Of a stretch of 64,000 nt of DNA, positions 1,706 to 62,240 are shown one piece after another (position 1 is the first letter of the stretch; each line of letters opens with the position of its first letter). Under the pieces are notes generated by a model. That model did no database searches. It saw only the letters and a program-made list of their open reading frames with translations, and was not told the origin of the DNA. Origin of the DNA: Candidatus Norongarragalina meridionalis (GTDB lineage: Archaea; Micrarchaeota; Micrarchaeia; Norongarragalinales; Norongarragalinaceae); assembly GCA_902384935.1 (NCBI GenBank), contig CABMDO010000009.1, positions 74,983 through 138,982 on the forward strand. Reading direction: 5' to 3'. The position numbers and the translations under genes are program-made.

Positions 1706-2371
1706 ATGGGAACTGTTTCGGGTTTGCGCGCCTATTTCCGGAAGGCTGGCGCGACGAAGGCGGTCATCGGGCTCAGCGGAGGCATCGATTCGGCGCTCGC
1801 ATGCTTCCTCACCGCAAGGGCACTTGGCGCAAAAAACGTGACGGCGTACTATCTTCCCTATTTCGGGAACGGCGAGGAAAATTACGCGAAGACGGCGGCG
1901 AAATGGGCGGGCGTGCGACTGAAGAAAGCGAGCATTAGGAAGGCGGTTGACGCGGTTTGCGATGCGACGGGAACTAATGACAGAGTAGGTAGGGGAAACG
2001 TGATGGCTCGCGTCCGCATGGCATTGCTCTACGCATTTGCCAGGAAAAACAGGGCGCTGGTCGTCGGAACTGGAAACAAGAGCGAACTCCTTACGGGATA
2101 TTTCACCAAATACGGCGACGGCGGATGCGACGTCCTTCCATTGGGCGCGTTGTATAAAACGGAAGTAATGGCGCTGGCTAAGCGACTTGGAGCGCCAACT
2201 GCCATTTTGAAACGCAAACCTACTGCAGGACTTTGGAAAGGGCAGACGGACGAGGGCGAACTGGGAATGAGTTACGCGGAGTTGGACGCGCTACTTAGGA
2301 AGGGAGGACTGCGCAAACGCGTTTCTGCGACCGAACACAAAAGAAAACCGCCAGTTGTGATTAAATGCTGA
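1706..2371 (+). CDS. nadE: NH3-dependent NAD+ synthetase
   Basis: PP-loop motif GLSGGIDS and the conserved NadE core (VVGTGNKSEL, GYFTKYGDGG); 221 aa. Confidence 0.85.
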   Translation: MGTVSGLRAYFRKAGATKAVIGLSGGIDSALACFLTARALGAKNVTAYYLPYFGNGEENYAKTAAKWAGVRLKKASIRKAVDAVCDATGTNDRVGRGNVMARVRMALLYAFARKNRALVVGTGNKSELLTGYFTKYGDGGCDVLPLGALYKTEVMALAKRLGAPTAILKRKPTAGLWKGQTDEGELGMSYAELDALLRKGGLRKRVSATEHKRKPPVVIKC

Positions 2372-3174
2372 CCGACGACATGAAAAGGCGGCTGGAATCG
2401 TTCGTCGCGGACGATGTCGAGAAAGGCGACGTGACGGGCGCGCTTGTTCCGCTCCGCGAAATCAAGGCGAAAATCGTCACACGGGAAAAATGCACTCTCG
2501 CTGGAATTGAAGAGGTGGCGTTTATTTTTGAAAAGCACGGGCTTACTGTGAAGACGCTGAAGCGCGACGGCGAAAAGGCGAGGAAAAGCGATGCGATCAT
2601 GCGCATCTCAGGGCTAAATCGTTCTCTTTACGAAACCGAAAGAGTCGCGCTCAACATCATGTCGCGCATGTCGGGGATTGCCACCGCGTGCGCGGAAGCG
2701 GCGAGGCTCGCGGCGCCCGTGAAGGTGGCGGTGACAAGGAAAACCACTCCCGGCTTTTCGGTATTCGAAAAGAAAGCCGCGGTTTTGGGCGAGGCGCTGC
2801 CGCACCGCGCGGATTTGTCGGAGATGATTTTGCTAAAGAGGCAGCATCTGCGCGAAATGGGCGGAATAAGGAAGGCGGCGGTTGCCGTGCGGGAAAAGCA
2901 CGGCGTGTTCGAGGCGGAGGTTTCTTCGGTTGCGGAGGCGGTTGCCGCCGCGGAAGCGGGCGTGCCGATCATCATGCTCGACAACATGCCGATTAAGGAA
3001 GCTAAAAGGGCGGTAGCGGAAATAAGGAAGAAAGGAAACGCGGCAATTGAAATTTCAGGCGGCATCACTCCCGCGAATCTGAAAAAATACGCGGCACTGA
3101 AACCCGACTTCGTCTCCATGGGCTCGCTTACGAGGGACGCGCGCGGCGTAGATTTCTCGATGGTGACGGAATGA
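2365..3174 (+). CDS. nadC: nicotinate-nucleotide (quinolinate) pyrophosphorylase
   Basis: 269 aa with typical NadC/QPRTase blocks (DVTG, VAVTRKTTPG, IIMLDNM, EISGGIT). Overlaps the nadE stop by a few nt, so operon-coupled. Confidence 0.85.
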   Translation: MLTDDMKRRLESFVADDVEKGDVTGALVPLREIKAKIVTREKCTLAGIEEVAFIFEKHGLTVKTLKRDGEKARKSDAIMRISGLNRSLYETERVALNIMSRMSGIATACAEAARLAAPVKVAVTRKTTPGFSVFEKKAAVLGEALPHRADLSEMILLKRQHLREMGGIRKAAVAVREKHGVFEAEVSSVAEAVAAAEAGVPIIMLDNMPIKEAKRAVAEIRKKGNAAIEISGGITPANLKKYAALKPDFVSMGSLTRDARGVDFSMVTE

Positions 3175-3743
3175 GAATCGGGATACTCGGCGGTTCGTTC
3201 AACCCTCCGCACGACGGGCACGTCGCCGCTGCTAAGGCAGTTCTGCGAGCACGTCTTGTGGACGAGGTGTGGGTGATGCCGTGCTGGAGGCAGGCTGGAA
3301 AGAAGCTCGCTCCGTTCAGAACGAGGATGGAGATGGCGCGCATCGCGTTCGGCGGCATAAGAGGCGTCCGAGTCAGCGATTTCGAAGAGAAATACAACAG
3401 AACCGGAAAAACCATCGAGACGATTCGGGCATTAAAACGCAGTTATCCGCGCACTGCTTTCTCGTGGATTATCGGCTCGGATTTGCTGAATTCGCTGAAT
3501 TCCTGGGACGAGGCTGCGGCGCTGAAGAAAAGCCTGGATTTCGTCGTCGTGAAGCGCGGAAAGATGCCCGCGAAAAAACTGGCTGCGAATTTTGTCGTGT
3601 TGGATGCGAAAACTCCCGATGTGTCGAGCACCGAGATAAGGAGAAAACTCGCTAAGGCAGGTCGCGGGGCTCGCGTCCGGGGCGTATCGGCAGGTGTTTT
3701 ATCCCGCTGGTTAGGCTTCGCGAACGGGAAACGCGCCTCATGA
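3171..3743 (+). CDS. nadD: nicotinate-nucleotide adenylyltransferase, bacterial NadD type
   Basis: GGSFNPPHDGH nucleotidyltransferase motif and the SSTEIR motif near the C-terminus. The 3' end overlaps the convergent HD-GYP gene by ~90 nt. Confidence 0.75.
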   Translation: MRIGILGGSFNPPHDGHVAAAKAVLRARLVDEVWVMPCWRQAGKKLAPFRTRMEMARIAFGGIRGVRVSDFEEKYNRTGKTIETIRALKRSYPRTAFSWIIGSDLLNSLNSWDEAAALKKSLDFVVVKRGKMPAKKLAANFVVLDAKTPDVSSTEIRRKLAKAGRGARVRGVSAGVLSRWLGFANGKRAS

Positions 3744-4509
3744 AAAGATTGTTTTCTTCGCGCACGAGTTTTAAGAGCGCCTCGGTTACGCGCGGGTCGT
3801 AGCCGTGCGCGCCGTTTTTGGAAAGCAAATCGTCCATCTGTTCGCGGAGAGAGCGCCTTTTGATGTATCCGCCAGCCTTGCCTACCTGCCGCGTCCACAT
3901 CGCATGAAGAGAATCGGCGACCGCGAGAATTCGCGCGCCGAGCGGCGGGTGCTCGATTTCGTCGAAACCATGCGGATAGCCTTTCGGATAATGGTGGAAC
4001 AGAACTCCGTCGATGATTTGGGGTGGAAGCCCGGAATGGTACAGTTCCTTTGCAGACAGCGCCGCGTGCTTCTCCTTGGCGCGAATCAATTGCTCCTTGT
4101 CTTCCCGGTCTTCCCAATTTCCGGCATTATTGAGGAAAAGTTCCCGCATCTCCTCGGTGGAAACCTTGCCTATGTCGTGGATCCTGCCCATCGCGTACGC
4201 CCACGCGCCGCTATCGGCGGACAACAGCATAAGTTCCTCCGCGTCCTTTCCCTTGAAAAGCGATGGATTGTCGCGCTGCATCTCCGCAAGCTTGCAGGCG
4301 ATGCGCGCGGAAAGCGCCGCGACTCCCGTGGAGTGCCCATACTCGAGATGGTCGGGCGGGATACGGCGAAGTTGTTCCTGAATGCGTTCGGGAACGGACA
4401 GCTCGAATATGTCCTCCAAACCAGCCATGCCCTTGGCGCTGAAAACGCGAGTCAGAAGCGCGTGATCCCTGCGAGGGGAACCGCTCCTGCGCTCCCTGCG
4501 GAACTGCAT
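3652..4509 (-). CDS. HD-GYP domain phosphohydrolase
   Basis: HD motif RIHDIGK plus FHHYPKGYPHGF (HH...GYP.G), matching the HD-GYP signature. An alternative start MAGLEDIF lies near 4428. Confidence 0.6.
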   Translation of the reverse strand: MQFRRERRSGSPRRDHALLTRVFSAKGMAGLEDIFELSVPERIQEQLRRIPPDHLEYGHSTGVAALSARIACKLAEMQRDNPSLFKGKDAEELMLLSADSGAWAYAMGRIHDIGKVSTEEMRELFLNNAGNWEDREDKEQLIRAKEKHAALSAKELYHSGLPPQIIDGVLFHHYPKGYPHGFDEIEHPPLGARILAVADSLHAMWTRQVGKAGGYIKRRSLREQMDDLLSKNGAHGYDPRVTEALLKLVREENNLFMRRVSRSRSLTSGIKHLPIRPGREPRDLP

Positions 4510-4510: not shown

Positions 4511-4729
4511 CTAGCGCCCCCTCCGTTTTATGCGCAGCCAGAACCAGCCGAAGAACGCGACGAACAATAACACGAAAGAAAGCAGCGCCCACGCGCCGTC
4601 GGTTTTCGAGAAGCCGCAGAGGCAGCCCTTCCAGAAATACATCCCTATCGCGGTTATGACGAGCGCGCCGAGCCCCGCCTTGAAGGACGCCTTCACCAGC
4701 GCGGGTGCGTCCCAATCCTCTAGCACCAT
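4511..4729 (-). CDS. small membrane protein
   Basis: Likely true start MVLEDWD (ATGGTGCTAG overlaps the stop of the upstream ORF). Two predicted TM helices. Confidence 0.4.
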   Translation of the reverse strand: MVLEDWDAPALVKASFKAGLGALVITAIGMYFWKGCLCGFSKTDGAWALLSFVLLFVAFFGWFWLRIKRRGR

Positions 4730-4908
4730 GACATCACCTTGTCGCGGCGGAAGTAGCGCACGAGAAGCGCGAGCCCCACCGCGATGAGCAGGAGCGCGAA
4801 CCACGGGAAATCGATGCGCGGAATCCAACCCATCTGCTTCCCTATTTCAAGCACGCCCCACGCGATGAAAAGTATCGCGACGAACAGCATGAACGTTCCG
4901 CGTGCCAT
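4720..4908 (-). CDS. small membrane protein
   Basis: 62 aa with two hydrophobic helices. Stop/start coupled to the neighbouring membrane ORFs. Confidence 0.4.
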   Translation of the reverse strand: MARGTFMLFVAILFIAWGVLEIGKQMGWIPRIDFPWFALLLIAVGLALLVRYFRRDKVMSWC

Positions 4909-4909: not shown

Positions 4910-5356
4910 TTACCGCCTCCTCTTTGCTTTCGACGGACGCGCCGCGGCGAAACCCGCCACGCCGCACGCCGCAGCTACGCCTACAAAGGCAATCATGAGC
5001 TGGAAAATCGCGTATTCCGCGGATGCGCCGGGAAGCGCGAGCGCGTTGAAGCGCGAGTATCCTATTTTCCCCAGAACCGCCGAGGAAATCGGGTGCGCAA
5101 TCACGCAGGCGAGCCCGCCGAACACCAGCGTCATTCCCGCCGAAAACAGCCCGAAGGTTATCGCGTCCCCGGAACGCTTCGCCTCGACGTAAGCGAGCGC
5201 GGCGAGAATCGCGACGACAACGGCGCCCTCCGCCGCGAGGAAATAAAGCGCGGTGCGTCCGTATCCCTCGGTATAAACCACGTAGAGCATGAGCAGCGAC
5301 GCGAACCAGCCCGCAGCCTGAACCATCGCCGAAGCGGCGAGAAGCTTGTTGTCCAT
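4910..5356 (-). CDS. membrane protein (4 TM), hypothetical
   Basis: 148 aa, strongly hydrophobic. First gene of a three-ORF membrane operon. Confidence 0.45.
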   Translation of the reverse strand: MDNKLLAASAMVQAAGWFASLLMLYVVYTEGYGRTALYFLAAEGAVVVAILAALAYVEAKRSGDAITFGLFSAGMTLVFGGLACVIAHPISSAVLGKIGYSRFNALALPGASAEYAIFQLMIAFVGVAAACGVAGFAAARPSKAKRRR

Positions 5357-5405
5357 GAAAGTGTTTGGGTGAAAGAATTTTTAAACGCCGCGCACTAGGC
5401 TTTGC

Positions 5406-5849
5406 ATGGAAAAAAGGCTATACCGTTCGAAGAAGGACAGGATTCTTGGCGGGGTGTGCGGCGGAATCGCGGAGTATTTCGAAGTGGACCCAACGCTCGT
5501 GCGGCTGCTCTGGGTGCTGTTCGTGCTCGCAGGCGGCGCGGGAGTAATCGCGTACATAATCGCGTGGATAATAATGCCGCCGAATCCGAAGCAGAAAGGA
5601 GTCGACGAGGACTTCTCGCGCGCCGCGGAACGCCTCGGAAAAAGGATGGAACGCAGGAAAGAACGCGAAGAAGACGGCAAACACGGCCTGCTGATAGGCG
5701 GAATCATAGTTCTCGGCATCGGGCTCGTGTTTCTCGCGTCTAACTACGGCTGGTTCCCGGGATGGTGGAGCTGGGACAAGATGTGGCCGGTTATGCTGAT
5801 ACTCGTGGGCGTCGGGCTGCTTGCCGGATGGGTGGCGAAGCGTGACTAA
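5406..5849 (+). CDS. PspC domain protein
   Basis: N-terminal RSKKDRILGGVCGGIAEYFEVDPTLVRL is the canonical PspC domain. Followed by TM segments. Confidence 0.75.
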   Translation: MEKRLYRSKKDRILGGVCGGIAEYFEVDPTLVRLLWVLFVLAGGAGVIAYIIAWIIMPPNPKQKGVDEDFSRAAERLGKRMERRKEREEDGKHGLLIGGIIVLGIGLVFLASNYGWFPGWWSWDKMWPVMLILVGVGLLAGWVAKRD

Positions 5850-5862
5850 AATTACCAAAAGC

Positions 5863-6048
5863 ATGACGCTCGGCGACGTGGTGTCGCGCTATCCGAACGC
5901 CACGGGAGTTATGCTCAAACACGGCCTGCACTGCGCGGGCTGCCCCGGCGCAATGATGGAAACAGTCGAGATGGGCGCGGTTGCGCACGGCATGACCGCG
6001 GCGCAGCTGGCGAAGATGCTCAGGGAAATGAACGACGCCGAGAAGTGA
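5863..6048 (+). CDS. DUF1858 / hybrid-cluster-protein-associated redox disulfide domain protein
   Basis: MTLGDVVSRYPNATGVMLKHGLHCAGCPG matches the small CxxC DUF1858 family. Confidence 0.55.
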   Translation: MTLGDVVSRYPNATGVMLKHGLHCAGCPGAMMETVEMGAVAHGMTAAQLAKMLREMNDAEK

Positions 6049-6087: not shown

Positions 6088-7803
6088 ATGGCAGCGCGCA
6101 TCAAATACGGCGGAAGCAGCCAGCGTGATCGCAGACTTATACGATACGGCGTTGATCTCGGCAGAAAGATAGCCGTGCGAAGGTTAATCGAACCGTCGCC
6201 AGCGCACATACTTTCGCTGGACTCGCAGGGAAGGATAATCGCCGCTTCCAAAAAGGCGGCGGAGCTTTTCGGCAGGGACTCCGCCAAACAACTCGAGGGT
6301 TTGCATTACACCGAACTTTTCCCGCACAGCCGCGACGAGCTTCTCACCGAGAGACACATCGGCGACAAGGACGGCTCCTCCACGAACTCGCTTCTCGTGA
6401 AGCGCAATTCCCCAGAAGGGCTCGTCGAATCGTACGTCCGAGTGAAACGGAACGGAAACGTTTTCAATTTGGCGTTAACCGACGTGGCGGACATGGTGAA
6501 GAGGAACCAGCTAATCACGGACATTTTCGGAATAAACAGGAAGATTAACACGGAAACGGATCTCGGCAAGGTCTTCGACGCCATAGCCCAGCATGCGGCG
6601 ACACACTTCGGGGTGCGCGCGGTTGTTACGAGATTCGACGGGGAAAAACTTGTCCCGTACGCCACGGCGGGGCCTGAGGAAACCGGAACCGGACCGATTC
6701 GGCTTTCCGACTTGGTGAAGAAGGGGCCGATACCGCTCGGCGAGGGAGTGATGGGCAGGGCTGCCGCGGAAGGAAAAACCGCCCGCGTCGAAGACGCCGA
6801 CGGCTACACCGGCGCCATCTTCCCGGGGATAGAAGACGAATACAATCTCGGCAATTCCGTCGGGGTGCCCCTGTTCGCCTATAACGGCGGCGGAAAGCGC
6901 ATACTCGTAGGTGTCATAGGGCTGTTCAAGGAAGTCGGCCAGGAAAAATTCCACGATTACCAGCTCGACCTCATGGACCACATAGCGGACAACGCGGCGA
7001 TAAAGATACGCAACGCCCAGCTGAACAAGAAGCTCGAGGAGATGGCTTACACCAACCCCGTCACGGGACTTTCCAACAGGAGGCGCTTCTTCGAGGAGCT
7101 GTCCAAGCATCTGGGCGTGGAGAGCATGGATACTGACGCGGCGAAACTGACGGAAAGAATCGGCACGGCGGGCATTCAACCGTTCACCGTCGTAAAGTTC
7201 GACGTGACGAACCTGCACGGCGCAAACGAGATAATCGGACACGACGCGGCGGACGTCCTGCTGAGGGACGTAATGGGCAAAACGCTGAGCAGCGTTTTCG
7301 GGCGGATGGGGCTCGGCAGGAAGGACGCGGTTTTGGCGCACGTCTACGGGGATGAATTCAACCTTTTGTTAAGAAATGCCGACGCGCACGTTGCCGAGGA
7401 ATTCGGAAAAACCGTGCGTGACGAGGTGGAAAGGCGCATATCCGAACAGTATCCAAAACTGAAGGATGCAGGAGTGGGAATCGACTACGCTCAAACAACT
7501 TACAATTACGCTGGCGCGAAGAACACCCCGAATGCGGTCAATCTCCTGCGATTCAAGCAACTGATAAGCGCGTACTCCAGAAAGGGCAGGCTGAAAACCA
7601 TCGGGCTCAGCGCGGGAGACGTCGTCGACATCTTGCTCAGGTATCCGGAGATACCGCTCGGAAAGGGAAAAGCGGAACGGAAAACCGCAGGCGGATGGTG
7701 GCCGCCGGGGGCTGCCCAGGAACTCGTCCGGCTCATCACGGAAGGCAAGTCTTCCAAGAACGCCATAGAAGAAATCGTAAAAAAATACCACATCAGGCGC
7801 TAG
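6088..7803 (+). CDS. PAS-GAF-GGDEF domain signalling protein with degenerate YGDEF motif
   Basis: The C-terminal ~170 aa match GGDEF: NPVTGLSNRRRFFEEL, FDVTNLHGANEIIGHDAADVLLRDV, VYGDEFNLLL, GVGIDYA. N-terminal PAS-like and GAF-like regions. Confidence 0.65.
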   Translation: MAARIKYGGSSQRDRRLIRYGVDLGRKIAVRRLIEPSPAHILSLDSQGRIIAASKKAAELFGRDSAKQLEGLHYTELFPHSRDELLTERHIGDKDGSSTNSLLVKRNSPEGLVESYVRVKRNGNVFNLALTDVADMVKRNQLITDIFGINRKINTETDLGKVFDAIAQHAATHFGVRAVVTRFDGEKLVPYATAGPEETGTGPIRLSDLVKKGPIPLGEGVMGRAAAEGKTARVEDADGYTGAIFPGIEDEYNLGNSVGVPLFAYNGGGKRILVGVIGLFKEVGQEKFHDYQLDLMDHIADNAAIKIRNAQLNKKLEEMAYTNPVTGLSNRRRFFEELSKHLGVESMDTDAAKLTERIGTAGIQPFTVVKFDVTNLHGANEIIGHDAADVLLRDVMGKTLSSVFGRMGLGRKDAVLAHVYGDEFNLLLRNADAHVAEEFGKTVRDEVERRISEQYPKLKDAGVGIDYAQTTYNYAGAKNTPNAVNLLRFKQLISAYSRKGRLKTIGLSAGDVVDILLRYPEIPLGKGKAERKTAGGWWPPGAAQELVRLITEGKSSKNAIEEIVKKYHIRR

Positions 7804-17053: not shown

Positions 17054-18190
17054 ATGTTTTTCTTGATGAAAGTGAAACCGGGACTTCGGAAGAGTATGGA
17101 AAGGGAGTTCCGCAACGAGGACCGGAAGCTCGAACGGGCTCAAAGCTTCATGGACGAGCCGCTGACGCGCAAAAGGATCGGAGAGCTCTTGGGAAAACCC
17201 CGGGGCGCCATCGGGAACGCCGAACTTTCCCAGAAGGAGCAGGACAGGGTGCTAGACGAAATACTCACCCAAAAGAGAACCGACGCGTTCATGGAAAAGC
17301 TCGGGAGGATTGCGGGGCAGAGCCTGACGACTTCGCGCGCGTTCTACGTCAGAAGGTTCTATTACAACAAAATCAAGCCCGCGGTATACAACGCGCAGAA
17401 GGAACACGGACTCAGCCTCGAAGAAACCGAGAAACTTCTCGATGCCATTGAAAACAGGGCCGCGGAATCGCACGCCAGGCAGTGGAAAGCCGGAAGAATC
17501 CAAAGCATGGGGTGGGCGCTGCGCAACAAATTCCGCAGGAAAACTCCCGAAGAGAAGCGCGACCGCACGTACCAAAAGCTGATGGCGAAAGCGGAAAGGA
17601 AAAACAAGGGTATGATCCGCGACAGCGCTGCCGCCGACATCACCAAGGTTATTCCTAGCCAGAAAAAAGCGCCTGAACCGAAAAAGGGAAAGACGCCGGG
17701 AAGATTCCGGAGATGGGTTACCGCACTTGCCGCAGTGGCGACGCTCGGGCTGGCTTCGCCTTCGGCGCCGGTTGAACAACAGCGCGAAACGCCAAAAACC
17801 GCGATGACGACGCAGGCGAAGCCCGCCGCAGAGAAGGTTCCGGACCGGAATTTGGAAAAGGGAAAAGGCGTTGTGCGCAGGTACGAGGACCTGGACTATC
17901 AGGCGCGACGCACGAACAACCAGACGCTCAGGGACGCGATAAGAGCGTACCAGTACGGCAACTATTCGAACGCGCGGACGCTTGCGCAGCACGTCACCAA
18001 AACCGGGCACATGCAGCTGAGCGATAAGGAAAAAGCGACGCTGAGTTCGGAGGCGGCGACGGGAAGGATACTGGGCGGCGGGGCGCGCGGCTCGAACGCG
18101 GAAATATCCGAAACCGCTTCCGACGAGGACATGGCGGTTGCGGCGATGCTCGTCCAGAAAAGCACGAACGCGATGGCGGAAAAGCGCTAG
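17054..18190 (+). CDS. hypothetical protein with single TM segment
   Basis: 378 aa, highly charged (K/R/E rich) with one hydrophobic helix (WVTALAAVATLGLA). No known domain. Confidence 0.4.
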   Translation: MFFLMKVKPGLRKSMEREFRNEDRKLERAQSFMDEPLTRKRIGELLGKPRGAIGNAELSQKEQDRVLDEILTQKRTDAFMEKLGRIAGQSLTTSRAFYVRRFYYNKIKPAVYNAQKEHGLSLEETEKLLDAIENRAAESHARQWKAGRIQSMGWALRNKFRRKTPEEKRDRTYQKLMAKAERKNKGMIRDSAAADITKVIPSQKKAPEPKKGKTPGRFRRWVTALAAVATLGLASPSAPVEQQRETPKTAMTTQAKPAAEKVPDRNLEKGKGVVRRYEDLDYQARRTNNQTLRDAIRAYQYGNYSNARTLAQHVTKTGHMQLSDKEKATLSSEAATGRILGGGARGSNAEISETASDEDMAVAAMLVQKSTNAMAEKR

Positions 18191-19806: not shown

Positions 19807-20286
19807 TTAAACGTTAACAATCCGCGGCCCGCTCTTCACTGGAAGCGCTCCGCCGTTCAATGCGTCGGGATGCGCGTCGAAGTAAACGGCCGCCTCCTTA
19901 TTCAGCGGGTCCTTCGTGTTCGGGTGCTCGAGAAGTTGTTTCAGCGCCTTCACGACGCTGAGAATCGTCTGCCCTTCCGCCCAGTTGTTGATAAGCTGGA
20001 TGCACACCTTGCCGTCCTTTTCGTGGATGTTCGGATGGAAAATGGGGGTGAGCCACGTGACGTCGATTCCGCCGGCATAGGGATATTCGCGCAGCAAGTC
20101 GATTTGGACGGAATGGGCGTCCCTGCGCATGACTGATTCTCCGTTCCGGTAAAGCCCCACTCCGCGCACACTGACCAGATAACGCGTACGCTCGGCGTTT
20201 ACTTCAAAGCGCTCGCCGCTTTTCTCCATCTCGGCGTACTCGCTGTCAAGCCGACGGCGCCATATCTGCTCGGGAAGCATCGGCAT
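19807..20286 (-). CDS. ubiquitin-conjugating enzyme E2-like protein (UBC fold)
   Basis: HPNIHEKDGKVCIQLI matches the UBC active-site motif HPN(I/V)xxxGx(I/V)C(L/I)xxL with a catalytic Cys. ~159 aa. Confidence 0.7.
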   Translation of the reverse strand: MPMLPEQIWRRRLDSEYAEMEKSGERFEVNAERTRYLVSVRGVGLYRNGESVMRRDAHSVQIDLLREYPYAGGIDVTWLTPIFHPNIHEKDGKVCIQLINNWAEGQTILSVVKALKQLLEHPNTKDPLNKEAAVYFDAHPDALNGGALPVKSGPRIVNV

Positions 20287-20295
20287 TGGAAACCC

Positions 20296-20538
20296 TCAGC
20301 CGCCAGTCGGATCCGGAATCAGGAGGAGTGAATCCCCTTCCTTTATGCCGGCGTCGGAAATCGTCAGTTCGGGGTTAAGGATTTTGTTGTCCTTCGTCGC
20401 AAGAACGAACCTGTCCTTGAGCTGCAGGCTCTCGGTAAGAACTTCGAGCACCGACGAGATGGTGAACGTCGGTTCGACGGCCACCACGATTTCCTTTCCA
20501 GACGTGGAATGAGTTACTGTAACGTTGAATTCTGCCAT
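20296..20538 (-). CDS. ubiquitin-like beta-grasp modifier ending in Gly-Gly
   Basis: 80-aa protein MAEFNVTVTH...SLLLIPDPTGG with a stop immediately after the C-terminal diglycine. Confidence 0.7.
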   Translation of the reverse strand: MAEFNVTVTHSTSGKEIVVAVEPTFTISSVLEVLTESLQLKDRFVLATKDNKILNPELTISDAGIKEGDSLLLIPDPTGG

Positions 20539-20587
20539 GTGGCACCACCAAAACGGTTTAAAGAGCACGGGCAATATAACCTTTTTC

Positions 20588-20995
20588 ATGGCATCCGGAC
20601 CGCGCATCGTGAAAAAGGACAGCGACGGCTTTGTCGAGATATCGATGGGCGGACACGAGGAGCAGAAGCCGCCTGCCGCCGAGGAGAAGAAGAACGCGAT
20701 GGAGGTTGCTCCCGAAGAAGTAGGGGAACGATTCGTCCGCGGCGAACTTCAAGAGATGCACAAACCGAAGATTGTTTCCGCCCGCGACGCATCGCCGCAG
20801 GACGCCGCCAGGGCGCAGAGAGCGGCTGCGTCCCGGGACATTACTCCCGTCACGGCAGGACCGCAGAATCCGATTGTCATGACTCAGGACGAGCGCGAGA
20901 AAGCCTCGGATCTCGCGCGCAAGATTTACCAGGAAAGGGAAGCGGAGAAGGAGAAGCGCCCGGCTCACCGCTTCAGGAAACTGCTCGGACTGTGA
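20588..20995 (+). CDS. hypothetical low-complexity/disordered protein
   Basis: 135 aa rich in A/E/K/R, no domains. Divergent from the Ub-like gene and directly upstream of the JAMM gene. Confidence 0.3.
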   Translation: MASGPRIVKKDSDGFVEISMGGHEEQKPPAAEEKKNAMEVAPEEVGERFVRGELQEMHKPKIVSARDASPQDAARAQRAAASRDITPVTAGPQNPIVMTQDEREKASDLARKIYQEREAEKEKRPAHRFRKLLGL

Positions 20996-21003
20996 TATAG
21001 GAT

Positions 21004-21468
21004 ATGGCGCAGTACGACGTCTACATCGACGAAGCGGCGGTGCGCAAAGCCGAAAAGCAGTTCCGCGACGCCGCCCGCAACGGAAAAGAGGCGATGGGGC
21101 TCCTTCTGGGAAACGTGTTTCATTCGGACGGAAGCGAATTCGTTCACGCAACCGACTATGTCACCGCGCCGAACGATTCAACCGCCGTCTCCGTGCGCTT
21201 CACTAGGCAGGCGTTCTCCGAACTGAGCGGAAAAATACGCGGCAAGGGGCTGATAGTTGCCTGGGCGCACTCGCACCCGGGATACGGCTGCTTCCTTTCC
21301 TCCACGGATATGGCGACGCAACATAGGTATTTCTCCGAAAAATTTCACTTCGCGCTCGTGATGGACCCTACGCGGCGCGAAGGAAGCGCAATGCTTAAGA
21401 GGGCGTTCCGCCTGAAGGACGGGGGCTACGAAGAGGTTTCGTTCGCGGTTGTGAGGAAACGTGGCTGA
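21004..21468 (+). CDS. JAMM/MPN+ metalloprotease (Rpn11-like deubiquitinase/isopeptidase)
   Basis: JAMM motif AHSHPGYGCFLSSTD (HxHx7Sx2D) with an upstream Glu. 154 aa. Confidence 0.75.
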   Translation: MAQYDVYIDEAAVRKAEKQFRDAARNGKEAMGLLLGNVFHSDGSEFVHATDYVTAPNDSTAVSVRFTRQAFSELSGKIRGKGLIVAWAHSHPGYGCFLSSTDMATQHRYFSEKFHFALVMDPTRREGSAMLKRAFRLKDGGYEEVSFAVVRKRG

Positions 21469-22219
21469 ATCCGAGACGCAGGCAACTGCGCCTGAAAAAA
21501 AACGCAAGGCACGCAAAAAAAACCTAGAGATAACGCTGTTCGACCGCTCGGTTGCGAAGGAGGTCATGAACGGCGTTTCGAGCGTCGCCTCCCTCAAAGA
21601 AAAATTCAAGTCCGTGGACGAAACGGAGTTCGACGCACGGCTCCGCGAGCTCTCCGCCGAAGGTTATTTCGCGCTCAACGGCGACGTGGTGAAGTTCGGA
21701 ATAAAGGGATTCAACGCGTTCGCTCCCAAACCGAAGAAGGAAAAGGCGAAAGCGGTTGCGCCCGCCGTGCAGGCAAAAACAAAGGAAGAAACGCAGGTTT
21801 CCCCTGCGGCGTCCATTGCTCCCGAATCTCCCGCGCAGAAGACCGATGAGCGCATGGATCTGGACGAGGCGTTCCGCAAGGGCGCGCCGTCGGGAACAGG
21901 CGACTCTTTCTTCGCCAAGCGAAGGAAGCAGCGCGAAGGCGCCGCCGCCGAAGCAGCGGCAGCCGCACCGATACAGCCGCTGAAGAACGGCGAGGAAGGC
22001 GCGTGCGAGCTGTGCAAGGCGCCTTTCAAGATATCAACAGGCGCCGAAAACAACCCGCGCTACGGGCACTGCTTCTGCGGCGCGGCGTACCACCAGGACT
22101 GCTACGAAACTTTGGCGGCTACTGGCGCGAACTGCGTCCGATGCGGAAAGAAAATCAAGCTCACTGTTGACAGGCGCACCGAGGAAGCGATGAAGGGCGT
22201 CAAGGACGCGTTCGACTAG
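21461..22219 (+). CDS. RING-type zinc-finger protein (candidate E3 ligase) with Lys-rich disordered N-terminus
   Basis: C-terminal CELC-x15-HCFC-x4-H-x2-C-x11-CVRC cross-brace Cys/His pattern. Start overlaps the JAMM stop. Confidence 0.55.
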   Translation: MAESETQATAPEKKRKARKKNLEITLFDRSVAKEVMNGVSSVASLKEKFKSVDETEFDARLRELSAEGYFALNGDVVKFGIKGFNAFAPKPKKEKAKAVAPAVQAKTKEETQVSPAASIAPESPAQKTDERMDLDEAFRKGAPSGTGDSFFAKRRKQREGAAAEAAAAAPIQPLKNGEEGACELCKAPFKISTGAENNPRYGHCFCGAAYHQDCYETLAATGANCVRCGKKIKLTVDRRTEEAMKGVKDAFD

Positions 22220-22974
22220 GAAGGGTGTACTGGGCAACCAGCGCGTTTTGGAATGCCGTACGTTTTTGCCTCGCCTTTTAATCCGTCGTAGAAAAGGAAC
22301 CTGTTTTCCAGCGTTTCCCCCTGATTGAACAGCATCTTCAGGAATTCGTTCGCCTGAATCGCCGCGACGATTGACGTCGTCGTGGGCAGCGCGGGCATCT
22401 TCGGATCCAGGAAGTCCAGGATTTCCCCGACGCACGAATACTTCTTCCACATGAGCTTGTAGTCGCGCGTGCTGATACCGCATTCTATGCAGGCAGACGG
22501 CGCGCGAACCGTTTGCACCCTGCCGTTGAACGCCGCGGTTCCTCCGTCAATGAGCGGAACCTTGCCATAGCATTGGGCGTTCAGGTGCAGCCTTGCGCCG
22601 AGGTTGTCGAGGCAGCCGAAGGCACAGTCGAAGGAAGAGAAAACGCCCTCGTCGACGTGCTCAATATGTTTGTCAATTACCGCGATTTCTGCTGCGGGCT
22701 CCAGACGCTTCGCCTCGCGCGCTACGACATCGGCTTTCTTCTTCCCGACGTCCGCCTCGGAGAAAAAAACGCATCGGTTAAGATTCGCGGGAACGATTTC
22801 GTCGTAATCAACGAGAGTGATTTTGCGGACGCCCAACTGCAGCAGGTTCTTTACGACTTCGTTGCCGAGGGCGCCTGCGCCGACGACTAGAACCCGCGCG
22901 CCGGCGACGCTCTCCTGCTTCCATCCCGCGACGCGTTTCTGCCTGTCGTGCCTGTCGGCGTCGATTGCTTCCAC
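22216..22974 (-). CDS. E1-like ubiquitin-activating enzyme (ThiF/MoeB/UBA fold)
   Basis: DRQKRVAGWKQES, nucleotide-binding loop VLVVGAGALGNEV, ITLVDYDEIVPANLNR, and CxxC pairs (CIECG). Confidence 0.75.
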   Translation of the reverse strand: MEAIDADRHDRQKRVAGWKQESVAGARVLVVGAGALGNEVVKNLLQLGVRKITLVDYDEIVPANLNRCVFFSEADVGKKKADVVAREAKRLEPAAEIAVIDKHIEHVDEGVFSSFDCAFGCLDNLGARLHLNAQCYGKVPLIDGGTAAFNGRVQTVRAPSACIECGISTRDYKLMWKKYSCVGEILDFLDPKMPALPTTTSIVAAIQANEFLKMLFNQGETLENRFLFYDGLKGEAKTYGIPKRAGCPVHPS

Positions 22975-23734: not shown

Positions 23735-24079
23735 ATGCCGTTGCCCTCCGAGTTTACTCATATGCTCGCTGAACTTTCGGTCGCGATATTCGTACTCTGC
23801 TTCGACGCCTACGCTTACCAGCAGTACCGCAAGAGCCAGGAAACCGCCGAGCCGAAGCGCGACGTGGCGGAAGTGGCCAAGGTGCTTCGGGAAGAGGCGG
23901 ACAACGGCGGCGCATACGAGGAGACGATTGTCGGCGGCAGCGTGGAGATGCTCCGCGGCGAATTCGACGCCCTGCGCGAGGACTACGAGCGCAGGTTCGA
24001 CGATTTCGAGAGGAAGCTCGCCGGTGCGTCGGCGAAGGAACTGCCCAAGAACTACGACGGCGTCATTCTCAACGATTAG
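23735..24079 (+). CDS. hypothetical small protein with N-terminal TM helix
   Basis: 114 aa, N-terminal hydrophobic segment then an acidic coiled region. Confidence 0.35.
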   Translation: MPLPSEFTHMLAELSVAIFVLCFDAYAYQQYRKSQETAEPKRDVAEVAKVLREEADNGGAYEETIVGGSVEMLRGEFDALREDYERRFDDFERKLAGASAKELPKNYDGVILND

Positions 24080-37241: not shown

Positions 37242-38669
37242 GTGAAATTCAAGACAACCGCCGACATCCCCGTGCCTTCGGACCCGCTCGAGCAGGTAAT
37301 AGGGCAGGACGAGGCGGTTCGGGTTGCCAAGACGGCGTGCAGCCAGCGCCGGCATCTTCTCCTGGTAGGACCGCCGGGAATCGGCAAGAGCATGATAGCG
37401 CAGGCCATTGCGTACCGTTTGCCGAAACCCACGGAAGAGATAAGCGTCCTGCACAACCCCGAAAACCCCGAACGCCCCACGATCGAGGTGCGGAGTTCCA
37501 CGGAAATAGAGAAGGAGCGCAAACTCGTGAAAGCGGCGGAAGCTGCGAAACTCATCGACCCTTCGGAAGCGCCCGCCATGGTTGCGGAGCGCCTCGGCTT
37601 CAGGTGCAGGTTCTGCGGTTCGCCTTCGAAACACTCCGAACGCGCCTGCCCGAGCTGCGGACGCGAGAAAACCGACATGTTCTCGCCATATCCGAACATA
37701 TTCATCGGTGCGCGCCCCCAGGCATCGCCCGAACGCGTGCACACTACGCGAATCACCGACGGCGAGCGCGAGGAGGTGGTCATATACGAACGCACGGGCG
37801 AGAAAATCCGCGTGCTCGACCAGTCGGTTCTCGAGAAAATCGACGCGATAAAGCGCAAACTCCCGCGCCGCGTGATCGTCCCGCTTGAAAGGAAGACTTT
37901 CGTGACCGCATCTGGAGCGAGCGAGACGGAATTGCTGGGCGACGTGCGGCACGATCCGTACGGGGGGCACGCGCAGGTCGGAACTCTTCCGTACATGCGC
38001 GTCGTTCCGGGCGCGATACACGAAGCGCACCAGGGCGTCCTGTTCATAGACGAGTTGAGCGCGCTCGCTTACGTCCAGCGCTTCCTGCTGACTGCCATGC
38101 AGGAGAAGAAATTTCCGATTGTAGGGAGGAACCCGCAGAGCGCGGGCGCGTCGGTGCGCGTCGAGGAAGTGCCCTGCGACTTCGTGCTTGCGGCGGCATC
38201 GAACATAAACGACCTGAAGATGATCCTTCCGCCCTTGCGCTCGCGCATAGTCGGCAACGGCTACGAACTGCTTCTTGAAACGACTATGCCGGACACTCCT
38301 GCGAACCAGGAAAAGGTTGCCCGTTTCGTTGCGCAGGAAATCCGCAAGGACGGCAAGATTCCGCACGCTTCCGCCGCGGCTGTCGAACGCTTGATCGACG
38401 AGGCGCGCAAAAAAGCGAAGGAATTCGACAACACGGACAACGCGCTTTCATTGCGCTTCCGCGAACTCAGCGGCATAGTGCGGCTCGCTGGGGACAACGC
38501 CATAGGGAACGGCGAGAAAACAATCGAGGAAGGCAACGTGGAGGACGCGGCGCGCCGCGGACGCTCCATCGAACAGCAGTTGCGCGACAAATACGGCTCG
38601 CTCTGGAAAGCAGGGGAAAGCGAGAACGTCAGCGCGCCGAAGGACGCGAAGCGCAGCGAAATCAGCTAA
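37242..38669 (+). CDS. LonB-like AAA+ ATPase lacking protease domain, with Zn-ribbon insert
   Basis: LonB N-terminus (VIGQDEAVRV, LLLVGPPGIGKSM), Walker B VLFIDELS, GDVRHDPYGG. CRFCGSPS...CPSCGRE replaces the LonB TM hairpin. The ORF ends without a Ser-Lys protease domain. Confidence 0.6.
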   Translation: MKFKTTADIPVPSDPLEQVIGQDEAVRVAKTACSQRRHLLLVGPPGIGKSMIAQAIAYRLPKPTEEISVLHNPENPERPTIEVRSSTEIEKERKLVKAAEAAKLIDPSEAPAMVAERLGFRCRFCGSPSKHSERACPSCGREKTDMFSPYPNIFIGARPQASPERVHTTRITDGEREEVVIYERTGEKIRVLDQSVLEKIDAIKRKLPRRVIVPLERKTFVTASGASETELLGDVRHDPYGGHAQVGTLPYMRVVPGAIHEAHQGVLFIDELSALAYVQRFLLTAMQEKKFPIVGRNPQSAGASVRVEEVPCDFVLAAASNINDLKMILPPLRSRIVGNGYELLLETTMPDTPANQEKVARFVAQEIRKDGKIPHASAAAVERLIDEARKKAKEFDNTDNALSLRFRELSGIVRLAGDNAIGNGEKTIEEGNVEDAARRGRSIEQQLRDKYGSLWKAGESENVSAPKDAKRSEIS

Positions 38670-52397: not shown

Positions 52398-53636
52398 TCA
52401 CCTATAGAATTGGAAATCCTTGCAGAGGTCTATTACTTCCGCCTTGACGTTCGCGAGCATCGCTTCGTCGTTCCACTTTCCAACCGCTTTGACGATTAGA
52501 CGCCCCACTTCCTTCATCTCGGATTCTTTCATGCCGCGCGTCGTAAGAACGGGGGTTCCCAAGCGTATGCCCGACGGATCGAAGGGCTTGCGCTTGTCGA
52601 ACGGAATCATGTTTTTGTTTACCGTGATGTTCGCCTTGTCCAGCGCTATTTCAGCCTCCTTTCCGGAAACTCCCTTGTCGGAAAGGTCCACGAGAAGCAG
52701 ATGGTTGTCCGTTCCGCCCGTAACGAGGCGCAACCCGCCTGCCTGAAGCGCGTCGGCGAGCGCCTTCGCATTTTTCACGATCTGCTTTCCGTACGTCTTG
52801 AATTCGGGCTTGAGCGCCTCGCCGAAGCAAACCGCTTTCGCCGCGATGGTATGCTCGTGCGGCCCGCCCTGCAAACCGGGGAAAACCGCCTTGTCTATTG
52901 CCTGCCCGTACTGCTCCTTGCACATTATCATGCCGCCGCGCGGTCCGCGCAGCGTCTTGTGCGTAGTCGTGGTAACTACCTCGGTGAAGGGGAACGGCGA
53001 CTGGTGCACGCCCGCGACTATCAAGCCCGCGATGTGCGCGATGTCCGTCATAGAGATTGCTCCGCACTCCTGCGCGATTTCATGAATCTGTTTGAAATCG
53101 ATCTCGCGGGAATACGCGGTTGCGCCGGAAACGATGATTTTCGGTTTTTCCGCGAGCGCGGTTTTGCGCATGGCGTCGTAGTCTATTCTTTCGTCCTCTC
53201 TGGAAACGCCGTACTGGACGAACTTGTAAGCGCGGCCCGAAAAATTCACCGCGTGCCCGTGCGTCAGGTGCCCTCCTTCGGCGAGGGACATGCCCATAAC
53301 CTTGTCCCCGAACTGGAGAAGGGCGAAGTAAACCGCGATATTCGCGGGGCTGCCGGAATACGGCTGGACGTTGACGTGCTCCGCGCCGAACAGCTGTTTC
53401 GCGCGATTAATCGCGATTTCCTCGACTATGTCCGTGAACTCGTTCCCGCCGTAATAGCGCTTGTGCGGATATCCTTCGGAATATTTGTTCGTGAACACGG
53501 AGCCCATCGCCTCGAGCACGGGTTCGCTCACGAGATTTTCGGAGGGAATCATCTCGAGGACGTTCATCTGGCGATGAAGTTCCTGCTGTATGACGGAGTA
53601 AACCTCGGGATCGGCTTCTTTCAGCAAATCAATCAC
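52398..53636 (-). CDS. glyA: serine hydroxymethyltransferase
   Basis: PLP site [11 protein letters not shown]. Full-length SHMT similarity. Confidence 0.9.
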
Positions 53637-54333: not shown

Positions 54334-54385
54334 CCTAATCCCCGCAGTAAGAAGGTTTAACCTGCGAACGCATATAATAGTTGCC

Positions 54386-61962: not shown

Positions 61963-62240
61963 GGGGACGGCGGGTTGCACGGCTGTCGGTATCCTCCCGT
62001 CAAACGGAGGAGGCTGAGGAAGTTCCGCCCACCATTTGCGAGAGCAAAGTGTTAGATGCGCAAGCATCCCCGTCTAAGACGGGAGCGTGGAACAGAAACG
62101 AACCGCGCCGAGAGCAGGATGACGAACAGGACGTTTCTCGGAATGCGGATGAAACGCGCCGCGCTTGGTGCAAGTGCTTTACGCACGCTAAGTCGAATGC
62201 CGTGGACAACAGAAGGCGGGCTACGGACTCGCCGTCCCAC
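61963..62240 (+). ncRNA. rnpB: probable RNase P RNA (archaeal type A)
   Basis: ~278 nt between CDSs. Ends pair (GGGGACGGCG/CGCCGTCCC, P1), P3-like hairpin CCUCCCgucaaaCGGAGG. AGGAAGUUCCGCCCACC resembles the CR-I/P4 5' strand AGGAAAGUCCGGGCUCC. ACAGAAGGCGGGCUACGG resembles the P4 3' strand ACAGAAnnCGGCUUA. CCGCCC/GGCGGG can form P4. Confidence 0.55.

What the first reader, a model, noticed from the sequence alone, without database searches (positions are those of the whole stretch)
3652..4509. HD-GYP-type phosphohydrolase, convergently overlapping a bacterial-type nadD
RIHDIGK plus HH-YPK-GYP-HG fits the HD-GYP signature. With the GGDEF protein 2 kb away, this hints at a cyclic-(di)nucleotide signalling module that is unusual for archaea. 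Its 3' end overlaps by ~90 nt the 3' end of a bacterial NadD-type NaMN adenylyltransferase, where archaea normally use NadM. In Firmicutes, nadD pairs with the HD protein YqeK, so the pair may have been co-acquired.
Basis: partly seen in the sequence, partly recalled or inferred. Interest (0 to 1): 0.5.

Follow-up and report, generated by a model that had tools for sequence, protein, structure and literature searches.

The report
Divergent HD-GYP-like phosphodiesterase in a DPANN archaeon
A tiny groundwater archaeon (Ca. Norongarragalina, Micrarchaeota) carries a real but very divergent relative of the bacterial HD-GYP cyclic-di-GMP phosphodiesterases, kept next to a GGDEF-type cyclase in related genomes. 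This makes it a concrete candidate for cyclic-dinucleotide signalling in archaea, while its overlap with nadD looks like genome compaction rather than a functional link.

Summary
ORF 3652-4509(-) encodes a 285-aa HD protein with RIHDIGK and HHYPKGYPHG. Its 3' end overlaps the 3' end of a NadD-type gene (3171-3743,+) by 92 nt. The contig is archaeal (archaeal RNase P RNA, RadA, Hjc, Nre) and matches the Ca. Norongarragalina meridionalis MAG.

HD-GYP is the closest family by sequence hits, profile comparison and fold. All seven dinuclear metal ligands and GYP are kept. It is atypical, though:
- it scores below the Pfam HD_5 cut-off;
- the HHExxDGxGYP loop is three residues shorter;
- the KPG and RxY[K/R] substrate motifs are altered.

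So it is probably an active phosphodiesterase, but its substrate is not established.

A syntenic ortholog (36% identity; neighbours 67-82%) sits in a related species within the same block: nadC-nadD> <HD-TM-TM | PspC-DUF1858-GAF-GGDEF>. The two divergent operons share a conserved TATA-like element. This argues against contamination and for an HD/GGDEF functional pair.

The YqeK co-acquisition idea is not supported. NadD is bacterial-type, with an unresolved donor. Convergent 3' overlaps are common in this window (8 of 15 convergent pairs), and this is the longest.

The parts
3652..4509 (-). Stand-alone HD-GYP-like phosphohydrolase gene (285 aa). It is the last gene of a minus-strand operon.
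   Evidence: The start abuts the stop of the upstream TM gene (4511). The N-terminal residues are conserved in the ortholog.
4165..4185 (-). RIHDIGK (H111-D112 metal ligands, K115)
   Evidence: Invariant in alignments A1/A4 and in the ortholog alignment A6.
3967..3996 (-). HHYPKGYPHG: H172-H173 metal ligands plus GYP, with a loop 3 residues shorter than HHExh(D/N)GxGYP
   Evidence: The ortholog has HHRLQGYP, of the same length.
3652..3743 (.). 92-nt convergent 3' overlap of the HD and nadD coding regions. It encodes the poorly conserved C-terminal tails of both proteins.
   Evidence: The HD stop codon (CTA on the + strand, 3652-3654) is homologous in relatives. The window has a 24-nt insertion that is in frame on both strands.
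3171..3743 (+). nadD, a bacterial-type nicotinate-nucleotide adenylyltransferase. It is the last gene of nadE-nadC-nadD.
   Evidence: TIGR00482 above cut-off.
1706..3174 (+). nadE (1706-2371) and nadC (2365-3174), overlapping head to tail with nadD
4511..4729 (-). Small membrane protein (about 72 aa from the internal Met; the mechanical ORF runs to 4828), immediately upstream of HD
   Evidence: 82% identical to the ortholog. Called as a 72-aa gene in L008.
4720..4908 (-). 62-aa LiaF-TM-like membrane protein
   Evidence: PF22570, 25.3 bits, just under the cut-off of 27. Present in L008.
4910..5356 (-). 148-aa membrane protein, first gene of the minus-strand operon. It is absent from L008.
5375..5386 (.). 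GAATTTTTAAAC, a TATA-like element about 25 nt from both divergent start codons (5356 and 5406)
   Evidence: The identical 12-mer in the same geometry occurs at L008 2458-2469. Promoter function is inferred.
5406..6048 (+). PspC-domain/LiaF-TM protein (5406-5849) and DUF1858 protein (5821-6048)
   Evidence: Syntenic in L008.
6088..7803 (+). PAS-GAF-GGDEF protein (571 aa) whose signature motif reads YGDEF
   Evidence: The ortholog P0222 (45% identity) reads HGDEF.

Best explanation
The gene encodes a stand-alone, lineage-restricted and fast-evolving member of the HD-GYP branch of HD phosphohydrolases. It keeps a complete dinuclear metal site (H59, H111, D112, H148, H172, H173, D199) and the GYP tyrosine. 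It lacks the Glu that builds a third metal site. It is therefore most likely an active metal-dependent phosphodiesterase.

It is the last gene of a small operon of membrane proteins, one of them LiaF-TM-like. That operon is transcribed divergently, from a shared TATA-like element, from a PspC-DUF1858-PAS/GAF-GGDEF operon. The most likely role (inferred) is degradation of the cyclic (di)nucleotide made by that neighbouring GGDEF-type cyclase. Together they would form a signalling pair tied to the membrane or envelope state of a DPANN archaeon.

The substrate-reading motifs of both enzymes are altered, so the messenger may be c-di-GMP or a different nucleotide.

The 92-nt overlap with nadD is a by-product of genome compaction. 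It affects only the weakly conserved C-terminal tails, and there is no sign of a functional tie to NAD synthesis. NadD itself is a bacterial-type enzyme, probably acquired horizontally.
For: HD-GYP affinity:
- All 99 non-self hits are PF13487 proteins, and the exhaustive search found 712 proteins at E<1e-3.
- hhalign of the archaeal pair against bacterial HD-GYPs gives 99.7% probability, E 4e-26 over 193 columns.

Catalytic residues:
- The seven ligands, K115 and GYP are identical in an ortholog that is only 36% identical overall.
- They map onto the PmGH ligands listed by Galperin & Chou (bioRxiv 10.1101/2021.11.05.467447).

Module:
- L008 (9 kb) and L005-L007 show the same order: nadC-nadD> <HD-TM72-TM62 | PspC-DUF1858-GAF-GGDEF>.
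- The 12-nt TATA-like element is identical and equidistant from both start codons in both species.
- The GGDEF domain is above the Pfam cut-off and keeps the metal Asp, the Asn and the xGDEF acidic pair.

Authentic archaeal DNA:
- Archaeal RNase P RNA and archaeal replication and repair genes lie on the same contig.
- Independent assemblies from other samples share the block.

Compaction:
- 8 of 15 convergent pairs in the window overlap at their 3' ends: 4, 4, 4, 4, 4, 18, 20 and 92 nt.
- The overlapped tails are the least conserved parts of both proteins.
Against: - Pfam HD_5 is below its gathering score in both orthologs: 24.4 and 18.4 bits against 27.2.
- phmmer against PDB finds nothing.
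- The HHExh(D/N)GxGYP loop is shortened by 3 residues and the Glu is lost.
- KPG reads NAG in the window and APG in the ortholog.
- RxY[K/R] is interrupted by a 5-residue insert, with Q and I (G in the ortholog) at the two base-reading positions.
- The GGDEF motif is YGDEF/HGDEF. Histidines replace the residues that, from my memory of PleD, contact the phosphates (K332, R366). The ortholog has N at the position I recall as the guanine-reading Asp.
- No PilZ, EAL or other c-di-GMP receptor was found among the window ORFs scanned.
- c-di-GMP has never been detected in an archaeon (PMC10249747).
- The AlphaFold model used an alignment of HD-GYP proteins, so the fold ranking is not fully independent.
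- No expression or activity data exist.
Confidence: 0.55

Rival explanations
1. It is an active HD hydrolase that has left cyclic-dinucleotide signalling. It would act on another phosphoester, such as a linear dinucleotide, 2',3'-cyclic NMP, an alarmone or nucleic acid. Its position near the GGDEF gene would be conserved only because the two genomes are closely related.
For: All three substrate-reading motifs of HD-GYP are altered. There are weak Cas3-HD matches at 24 bits. The protein has diverged much further than its neighbours (36% against 67-82% identity). Synteny is documented in only two or three closely related species.
Against: GYP and the HD-GYP-specific C-terminal helices are retained, and HD-GYP structures outrank every other HD family. 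The lineage-specific loop RQxGKxxGYxKxR is itself conserved, which suggests a defined ligand pocket. A shared promoter region with the GGDEF operon is conserved.
Confidence: 0.28
2. It is a catalytically silent HD-GYP-like protein that acts as a receptor or protein-interaction module, as some degenerate bacterial HD-GYPs do.
For: Non-canonical motifs and a sub-threshold HD_5 score. Galperin & Chou describe inactive HD-GYPs that work through protein-protein interactions.
Against: All seven metal ligands, K115 and the GYP Tyr survive at 36% overall identity. That pattern is what selection on catalysis would produce.
Confidence: 0.1
3. It is a YqeK-like HD partner of NadD (an Ap4A/NAD-related hydrolase) acquired together with nadD from Firmicutes.
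For: Physical adjacency to nadD. There is one weak match (15.9 bits, E 0.005) to the HD half of the NadD-HD fusion model NF005519.
Confidence: 0.03
4. The HD-GYP and GGDEF genes are bacterial contamination or a chimeric join in a metagenome-assembled genome, as suspected for most archaeal HD-GYP entries.
For: Galperin & Chou found that 69 of 70 archaeal HD-GYP ORFs come from MAGs and warned of contamination.
Against: The genes lie inside a 187-kb contig that also carries archaeal RNase P RNA, RadA, Hjc, Nre and ThiN. GC content shows no step at the locus. The same gene block was assembled independently from several other samples. No bacterial protein is more than about 35% identical over the full local alignment, or 45% over the matched stretches in the exhaustive search.
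Confidence: 0.02

Closest known systems
Bacterial HD-GYP c-di-GMP phosphodiesterases with a binuclear centre (PA4781, PDB 4R8Z; DvhD, 9RBZ)
   Different: It is stand-alone, with no REC, GAF or PAS sensor. It has a 20-residue insert between the first His and HD. The HH-to-GYP loop is three residues shorter. KPG and RxY[K/R] are not conserved. Identity is only 21-23%, and it scores below the Pfam HD_5 cut-off.
PmGH (PDB 4MCW/4MDZ), the trinuclear HD-GYP that hydrolyses c-di-GMP to GMP
   Same: Ligands H189, H221, D222, H250, H276, H277 and D305 all have counterparts.
   Different: The E185 position is Leu55 here, so no third metal is expected. R314 and K317, which read guanine, align with Q208 and I216.
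cGAMP-specific HD-GYPs (V-cGAP3, PDB 5Z7C; RxxQ/RxxN variants)
   Same: These show that changes in the RxxK motif shift HD-GYP specificity to another cyclic dinucleotide. That is a precedent for an altered substrate here.
PgpH-type HD domain (c-di-AMP phosphodiesterase, PDB 4S1B)
   Different: PgpH lacks the GYP motif, which is present here. From my own knowledge, PgpH sits in a 7TM receptor protein.
YqeK (Ap4A hydrolase encoded next to nadD in Firmicutes; PDB 8WMY, 2O08)
   Same: It belongs to the HD superfamily and its gene neighbours nadD.
   Different: There is no family-model hit. The structural score is much lower. The gene orientation is opposite. YqeK structures score far below the HD-GYPs.
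Methanocella arvoryzae RCIX2274 (REC-PAS-PocR-GGDEF-HD-GYP), which Galperin & Chou reported as the only archaeal HD-GYP from a complete genome
   Same: It is an archaeal protein set combining GGDEF and HD-GYP functions.
   Different: There it is one fused multidomain protein of bacterial appearance. Here the functions are in two separate, divergent genes in neighbouring operons of a DPANN archaeon.

Membership tests
HD-GYP domain (PROSITE PS51832 / Pfam HD_5 / Galperin & Chou 2022 definition) | HD-superfamily metal ligands H...HD...H...HH...D | tested here: met
   H59, H111-D112, H148, H172-H173 and D199 are aligned and invariant or nearly so in A1/A4, and identical in the ortholog.
HD-GYP domain (PROSITE PS51832 / Pfam HD_5 / Galperin & Chou 2022 definition) | GYP motif (the Tyr contacts the ribose-phosphate ring) | tested here: met
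   G177-Y178-P179. GYP is also present in the ortholog.
HD-GYP domain (PROSITE PS51832 / Pfam HD_5 / Galperin & Chou 2022 definition) | Full HHExh(D/N)GxGYP motif | tested here: not met
   The window reads HHYPKGYP and the ortholog HHRLQGYP. Both have a 3-residue deletion, and the Glu and the D/N-G pair are lost.
HD-GYP domain (PROSITE PS51832 / Pfam HD_5 / Galperin & Chou 2022 definition) | KPG motif (main-chain contacts to the second base) | tested here: not met
   The window has N128-A129-G130. The ortholog has APG.
HD-GYP domain (PROSITE PS51832 / Pfam HD_5 / Galperin & Chou 2022 definition) | RxY[K/R] motif that gives guanine specificity | tested here: not met
   The window reads R207-Q208-V-GKAGG-Y215-I216-K217. 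There is a 5-residue insert, and in register the Arg and Lys positions are Q208 and I216 (G in the ortholog). R207 and K217 lie one position away, so a shifted equivalent cannot be excluded.
HD-GYP domain (PROSITE PS51832 / Pfam HD_5 / Galperin & Chou 2022 definition) | Score above the curated family threshold | tested here: not met
   PF13487 scores 24.4 bits (window) and 18.4 bits (ortholog) against a gathering score of 27.2, and only the C-terminal part matches.
HD-GYP domain (PROSITE PS51832 / Pfam HD_5 / Galperin & Chou 2022 definition) | Closest family by profile and by fold | tested here: met
HD-GYP domain (PROSITE PS51832 / Pfam HD_5 / Galperin & Chou 2022 definition) | Hydrolysis of c-di-GMP (or cGAMP) | not testable with these tools
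   This needs an enzyme assay.
YqeK (TIGR00488; Ap4A hydrolase of the nadD-yqeK operon) | Match to the family model | tested here: not met
   There is no TIGR00488 hit at E<=10 for the window protein or the ortholog.
YqeK (TIGR00488; Ap4A hydrolase of the nadD-yqeK operon) | Co-directional operon with nadD | tested here: not met
   The gene is convergent to nadD and co-directional with the TM genes in both species. That the Firmicutes nadD-yqeK pair is co-directional rests on my own knowledge.
NadD (bacterial nicotinate-nucleotide adenylyltransferase, TIGR00482) | Score above the equivalog cut-off, with the N-terminal GxFxPxHxGH and the ISSTxIR motifs | tested here: met
   113.9 bits against a cut-off of 112.45. 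GGSFNPPHDGH and SSTEIR are invariant in A2.
NadD (bacterial nicotinate-nucleotide adenylyltransferase, TIGR00482) | Not the archaeal NadM type | tested here: met
   No archaeal NMN adenylyltransferase model is listed at E<=0.01. Only NadD models appear, plus weak CoaD and NadR matches.
NadD (bacterial nicotinate-nucleotide adenylyltransferase, TIGR00482) | Bacterial phylogenetic origin of this copy | tested here: inconclusive
   Outside the genus the best hits are <=43% identical. Those with names or gene context are bacterial. No rooted tree with an archaeal sample was made, and the closest outgroup (P0107) has unknown taxonomy.
GGDEF diguanylate cyclase (neighbour 6088-7803) | GGDEF domain above threshold, with the metal-binding Asp and acidic pair | tested here: met
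   PF00990 scores 37.9 bits against a cut-off of 23.8. The D of 'KFDV' and the DE of YGDEF are conserved in the ortholog.
GGDEF diguanylate cyclase (neighbour 6088-7803) | Canonical GG(D/E)EF, guanine-reading N/D pair and RxxD I-site | tested here: not met
   The motif reads YGDEF or HGDEF. The Arg before the motif is His. The ortholog has GHEETN (D to N). No RxxD is in register. The PleD residue roles rest on my own knowledge.

The most novel reading that the evidence does not exclude
Norongarragalina-type Micrarchaeota run a genuine archaeal cyclic-(di)nucleotide second-messenger circuit. It would consist of a non-canonical xGDEF cyclase and a re-tooled HD-GYP-like phosphodiesterase, co-regulated from one bidirectional promoter and wired to PspC/LiaF-like membrane proteins. 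The messenger could be c-di-GMP, which would be its first occurrence in Archaea, or a different nucleotide, which the altered base-reading motifs of both enzymes would allow.
Probability: 0.2. Interest if true: 0.75.

Novelty: new variant of a known kind. Interest (0 to 1): 0.5.

Why it matters
c-di-GMP signalling is regarded as bacterial. The messenger has not been detected in any archaeon (PMC10249747). The few dozen archaeal HD-GYP entries have been suspected to be contamination (Galperin & Chou).

In this locus, an HD-GYP-like hydrolase and a GGDEF-type cyclase are demonstrably on archaeal DNA. They are conserved as neighbours in two species and keep their catalytic residues despite strong divergence. 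That gives two small, expressible proteins with which to test directly whether any archaeon makes and degrades a cyclic dinucleotide.

The nadD overlap matters less. It illustrates how far gene packing goes in DPANN genomes, and it adds a bacterial-type NadD to the list of cofactor genes this lineage seems to have imported.

Tried and rejected
- phmmer of the protein against PDB sequences found no hit at E<=1. Only a profile dominated by bacterial HD-GYPs finds them, which by itself is not a membership test.
- Scanning GTDB genomes with peptide patterns from the HD protein found nothing. The patterns were too specific for a 36%-identical ortholog, and the source MAG seems not to be in that collection.
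- The exhaustive representative search returned only the protein itself below 1e-30 and did not list the CG08 ortholog found by other routes. That library evidently lacks it, so 'orphan' would have been a wrong conclusion.
- The second-best hit there (P0224, 7077 aa, 19 stretches against residues 128-184) looks like a compositional match to the Glu/Lys/Arg-rich insert. It was not pursued.
- PADLOC gave only weak generic Cas3-HD matches and nothing for the neighbours, so there is no support for a defence system.
- The supplementary tables of the HD-GYP census were not available. I could not check whether this ORF is among the 70 listed archaeal entries.
- Cluster look-up of NCBI-sourced NadD homologs gave almost no organism names.
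- I considered a frameshift or assembly error as the cause of the overlap. I rejected it because the HD stop codon is at the homologous position in three sequence variants, and both reading frames stay open across a 24-nt indel.
- dN/dS was not attempted because synonymous sites are saturated at 36% identity.
Full report
**What is there**

ORF 3652-4509 on the minus strand encodes 285 aa.
- RIHDIGK is residues 109-115, encoded at 4165-4185.
- HHYPKGYPHG is residues 172-181, encoded at 3967-3996.
- Pfam HD matches at E 9e-10.

On the plus strand, nadE (1706-2371), nadC (2365-3174) and nadD (3171-3743) overlap head to tail. The nadD product passes the NadD equivalog model TIGR00482, with 113.9 bits against a cut-off of 112.45. 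nadD and the HD gene converge and share 3652-3743, which is 92 nt. A PAS-GAF-GGDEF gene lies at 6088-7803.

**Provenance**

The HD, NadD and GGDEF proteins are each 100% identical to entries of 'Candidatus Norongarragalina meridionalis' on a 187-kb contig. This is a 0.93-Mb Micrarchaeota (DPANN) MAG from Australian groundwater (PMC8561730).

The window itself carries archaeal markers:
- archaeal RNase P RNA (121 bits);
- archaeal Nre, a DHH-CID protein, a Toprim-domain protein (probably the primase DnaG), ThiN and CTP-dependent riboflavin kinase;
- Hjc and the archaeal-type D-aminoacyl-tRNA deacylase;
- RadA.

GC content shows no step at the locus. This matters because Galperin & Chou found 70 archaeal HD-GYP ORFs, all but one from MAGs, and suspected contamination.

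**Which HD family**

Among 5.8e9 proteins, every non-self hit (E 7e-9 or weaker, about 25-43% identity over the best local alignments) carries PF13487/HD_5, and the named ones are called HD-GYP. An exhaustive HMMER pass over 1.84e9 representatives found nothing closer: 712 proteins at E<1e-3 and only the protein itself below 1e-30.

In alignments with these bacterial proteins, the window protein keeps H59, H111-D112, H148, H172-H173 and D199. These are the counterparts of PmGH ligands H189, H221, D222, H250, H276, H277 and D305. It also keeps K115 and G177-Y178-P179.

Further tests point the same way:
- A profile of the archaeal orthologs aligned to a bacterial-only HD-GYP profile gives 99.7% probability, E 4e-26, over 193 columns.
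- An AlphaFold model (pLDDT 78, pTM 0.80) is most similar to HD-GYP structures. Foldseek ranks PA4781, PmGH and DvhD first.
- A caveat applies: the model's input alignment consisted of HD-GYP proteins.

**Where it departs from HD-GYP**

- Pfam HD_5 scores 24.4 bits, below its gathering score of 27.2, and matches only the C-terminal part. The ortholog scores 18.4 bits.
- phmmer against PDB sequences finds nothing.
- The defining HHExh(D/N)GxGYP motif is HHYPKGYP, three residues shorter and without the Glu.
- KPG is NAG.
- The RxY[K/R] motif that reads guanine is split by a five-residue insert (R207-Q-V-GKAGG-Y215-I-K217). Q208 and I216 sit in the register of PmGH R314 and K317 (motif roles).
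- The position of the third-metal Glu (E185 in PmGH) is Leu55, so a binuclear site is expected.
- A 20-residue insert lies between the first His and HD.

My conclusion is that it belongs to the HD-GYP lineage and very probably has a working metal centre. It is not a canonical member, and its substrate cannot be read from the sequence.

**Orthologs and synteny**

Close NadD homologs (68-78% identity) on short metagenome contigs always have a convergent downstream ORF. The product of that ORF aligns with the C-terminus of the window HD protein.

A pattern scan of metagenome contigs built from that alignment recovered full-length orthologs (L005-L007). The GGDEF ortholog P0222 comes from 'Micrarchaeota archaeon CG08_land_8_20_14_0_20_59_11' and led to a 9-kb contig, L008. 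L008 has the whole block:
- nadC-nadD(+);
- HD(-), TM72(-), TM62(-);
- PspC(+), DUF1858(+), GAF-GGDEF(+).

The ortholog shares the unusual features: the 20-residue insert, HHRLQGYP with the same short loop, and RQKGKPSGYGK. The lineage signature is therefore H..HD[IV]GK..H..HHxxxGYP..D..RQxGKxxGYxKxR.

The HD proteins are only 36% identical. The flanking NadE, NadC, NadD, TM72 and PspC proteins are 67-82% identical, and the GGDEF proteins are 45% identical. All catalytic residues survive this divergence, which argues for selection on catalysis.

**Operon context (inferred from geometry)**

- The HD start codon (4509) abuts the stop of the upstream small membrane-protein gene (4511). In L008 the corresponding coordinates are 2041 and 2042.
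- Upstream lie a 62-aa LiaF-TM-like protein (25.3 bits) and, in the window only, a 148-aa membrane protein.
- This minus-strand operon starts at 5356. The PspC-DUF1858-GGDEF operon starts at 5406.
- In the 49-nt spacer, the 12-mer GAATTTTTAAAC (5375-5386) lies about 25 nt from both start codons. The identical 12-mer occupies the same position in L008.
- That spacing fits an archaeal TATA box serving leaderless transcripts in both directions. This reading rests on my knowledge of archaeal promoters and was not tested.
- It ties the HD gene to the GGDEF gene more firmly than the 1.6-kb distance alone.

**The GGDEF partner**

The domain is above the Pfam threshold (37.9 bits against 23.8). It aligns with solved diguanylate cyclases at E 3e-6. 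The metal Asp, the Asn and the GDEF acidic pair are kept.

It is not canonical, however:
- the signature reads YGDEF in the window and HGDEF in the ortholog;
- the Arg before the motif is His;
- no RxxD I-site is in register;
- the ortholog has Asn where the guanine-reading Asp is expected (the PleD residue roles are from my own knowledge).

No PilZ, EAL or other c-di-GMP component was found in the window ORFs scanned. The rest of the genome was not available.

**The overlap with nadD**

- The HD stop codon (CTA on the plus strand, 3652-3654) lies a few codons after NadD's conserved SSTEIRR. It is at the homologous position in three sequence variants.
- The overlap is 59 nt in the relatives and 92 nt here. 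The window has a 24-nt insertion, in frame on both strands, and a later nadD stop.
- The shared segment encodes only the variable C-terminal tail of NadD and the low-confidence tail of the HD protein. pLDDT is about 59 on average over the last 30 residues, falling below 50 at 283-285.
- In a mechanical gene list of the window, 8 of 15 convergent pairs overlap at their 3' ends: five by 4 nt, then 18, 20 and 92 nt.
- The overlap is thus real and conserved, but it is best read as extreme gene packing. Whether the transcripts overlap was not testable.

**NadD origin and the YqeK idea**

NadD carries the GGSFNPPHDGH and SSTEIR motifs and matches only NadD-type models. Outside the genus, the best homologs are <=43% identical.
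- All 80 best loci from a scan of GTDB genomes are bacterial, at 29-39% identity. That scan depended on a few peptide patterns.
- Two close metagenomic homologs sit next to NamZ, which I take to be a bacterial cell-wall recycling enzyme from my own knowledge.
- The closest outgroup (P0107) has unknown taxonomy.
- A 2025 study concluded that genes of the free-living-associated set, which includes cofactor biosynthesis, were acquired mainly by HGT in several Micrarchaeota orders, Norongarragalinales especially (PMC12892359).

So NadD is bacterial-type and probably imported, but the donor is unresolved.

The YqeK hypothesis fails on four counts:
- there is no TIGR00488 match even at E<=10;
- the only link is a 15.9-bit match to a NadD-HD fusion model;
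- the gene orientation is opposite to nadD;
- YqeK structures rank low.

**Verdict**

This is a genuine archaeal, lineage-restricted, fast-evolving variant of the HD-GYP phosphodiesterase family. It is paired by conserved synteny and a shared promoter region with a non-canonical GGDEF-type cyclase and with PspC/LiaF-like membrane proteins. It is a credible and directly testable candidate for cyclic-dinucleotide signalling in Archaea, but neither the messenger nor any activity is shown. The nadD overlap is real and of minor significance.

Noticed in passing
window 19807-22974: A eukaryote-like ubiquitin-type cluster in a DPANN contig. It has a UQ_con E2 (19807-20286, 65 bits), an adjacent small ORF with a sub-threshold Rad60-SLD/ubiquitin-like match (20296-20607, 22.6 bits against 23.8) and a ThiF-type E1 (22216-22974, 167 bits). 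Two ORFs between them are unannotated.
   Followed up: no
window 3652-4509 and 6088-7803 versus L007/L008: The HD protein (36% identity) and the GGDEF protein (45%) have diverged far more between the two species than their syntenic neighbours NadE, NadC, NadD, TM72 and PspC (67-82%). The catalytic residues are nevertheless retained.
   Followed up: partly
window 5375-5386; L008 2458-2469: An identical 12-mer, GAATTTTTAAAC, lies about 25 nt from both divergent start codons in both species. It may be a shared bidirectional archaeal TATA element giving leaderless transcripts.
   Followed up: partly
window 3655-3678: A 24-nt insertion relative to two related sequences lies directly next to the HD stop codon. 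It keeps both overlapping reading frames open, adding KAGRGARV to NadD and GREPRDLP to the HD tail.
   Followed up: partly
window, all convergent gene pairs: Five convergent pairs overlap by exactly 4 nt at their stop codons (for example 7800-7803, 18187-18190, 22216-22219, 24076-24079 and 38666-38669). Two more overlap by 18 and 20 nt. This is very tight packing (using mechanical ORF calls).
   Followed up: partly
window 61967-62235 and 62000-63922: A 640-aa minus-strand ORF with no Pfam match overlaps the archaeal RNase P RNA gene by about 236 nt. Its true start is probably further downstream, or the ORF is partly spurious.
   Followed up: no
window 4910-5356: A 148-aa membrane-protein gene heads the HD operon in the window but is absent from the otherwise syntenic L008.
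   Followed up: no
window 52398-55630: SHMT, ThyX and a Mur-ligase-family protein (54386-55630) lie together. In this folate context the Mur ligase is probably FolC-like. An exosortase/archaeosortase-like protein lies at 56449-57201.
   Followed up: no
P0009 (334 aa, metagenomic): A bacterial-type HD-GYP that passes HD_5 (87 bits) has the same 3-residue-shorter loop (HHYT-KSYP) and lacks RxYK. The short-loop variant may therefore exist outside the archaeal lineage.
   Followed up: partly
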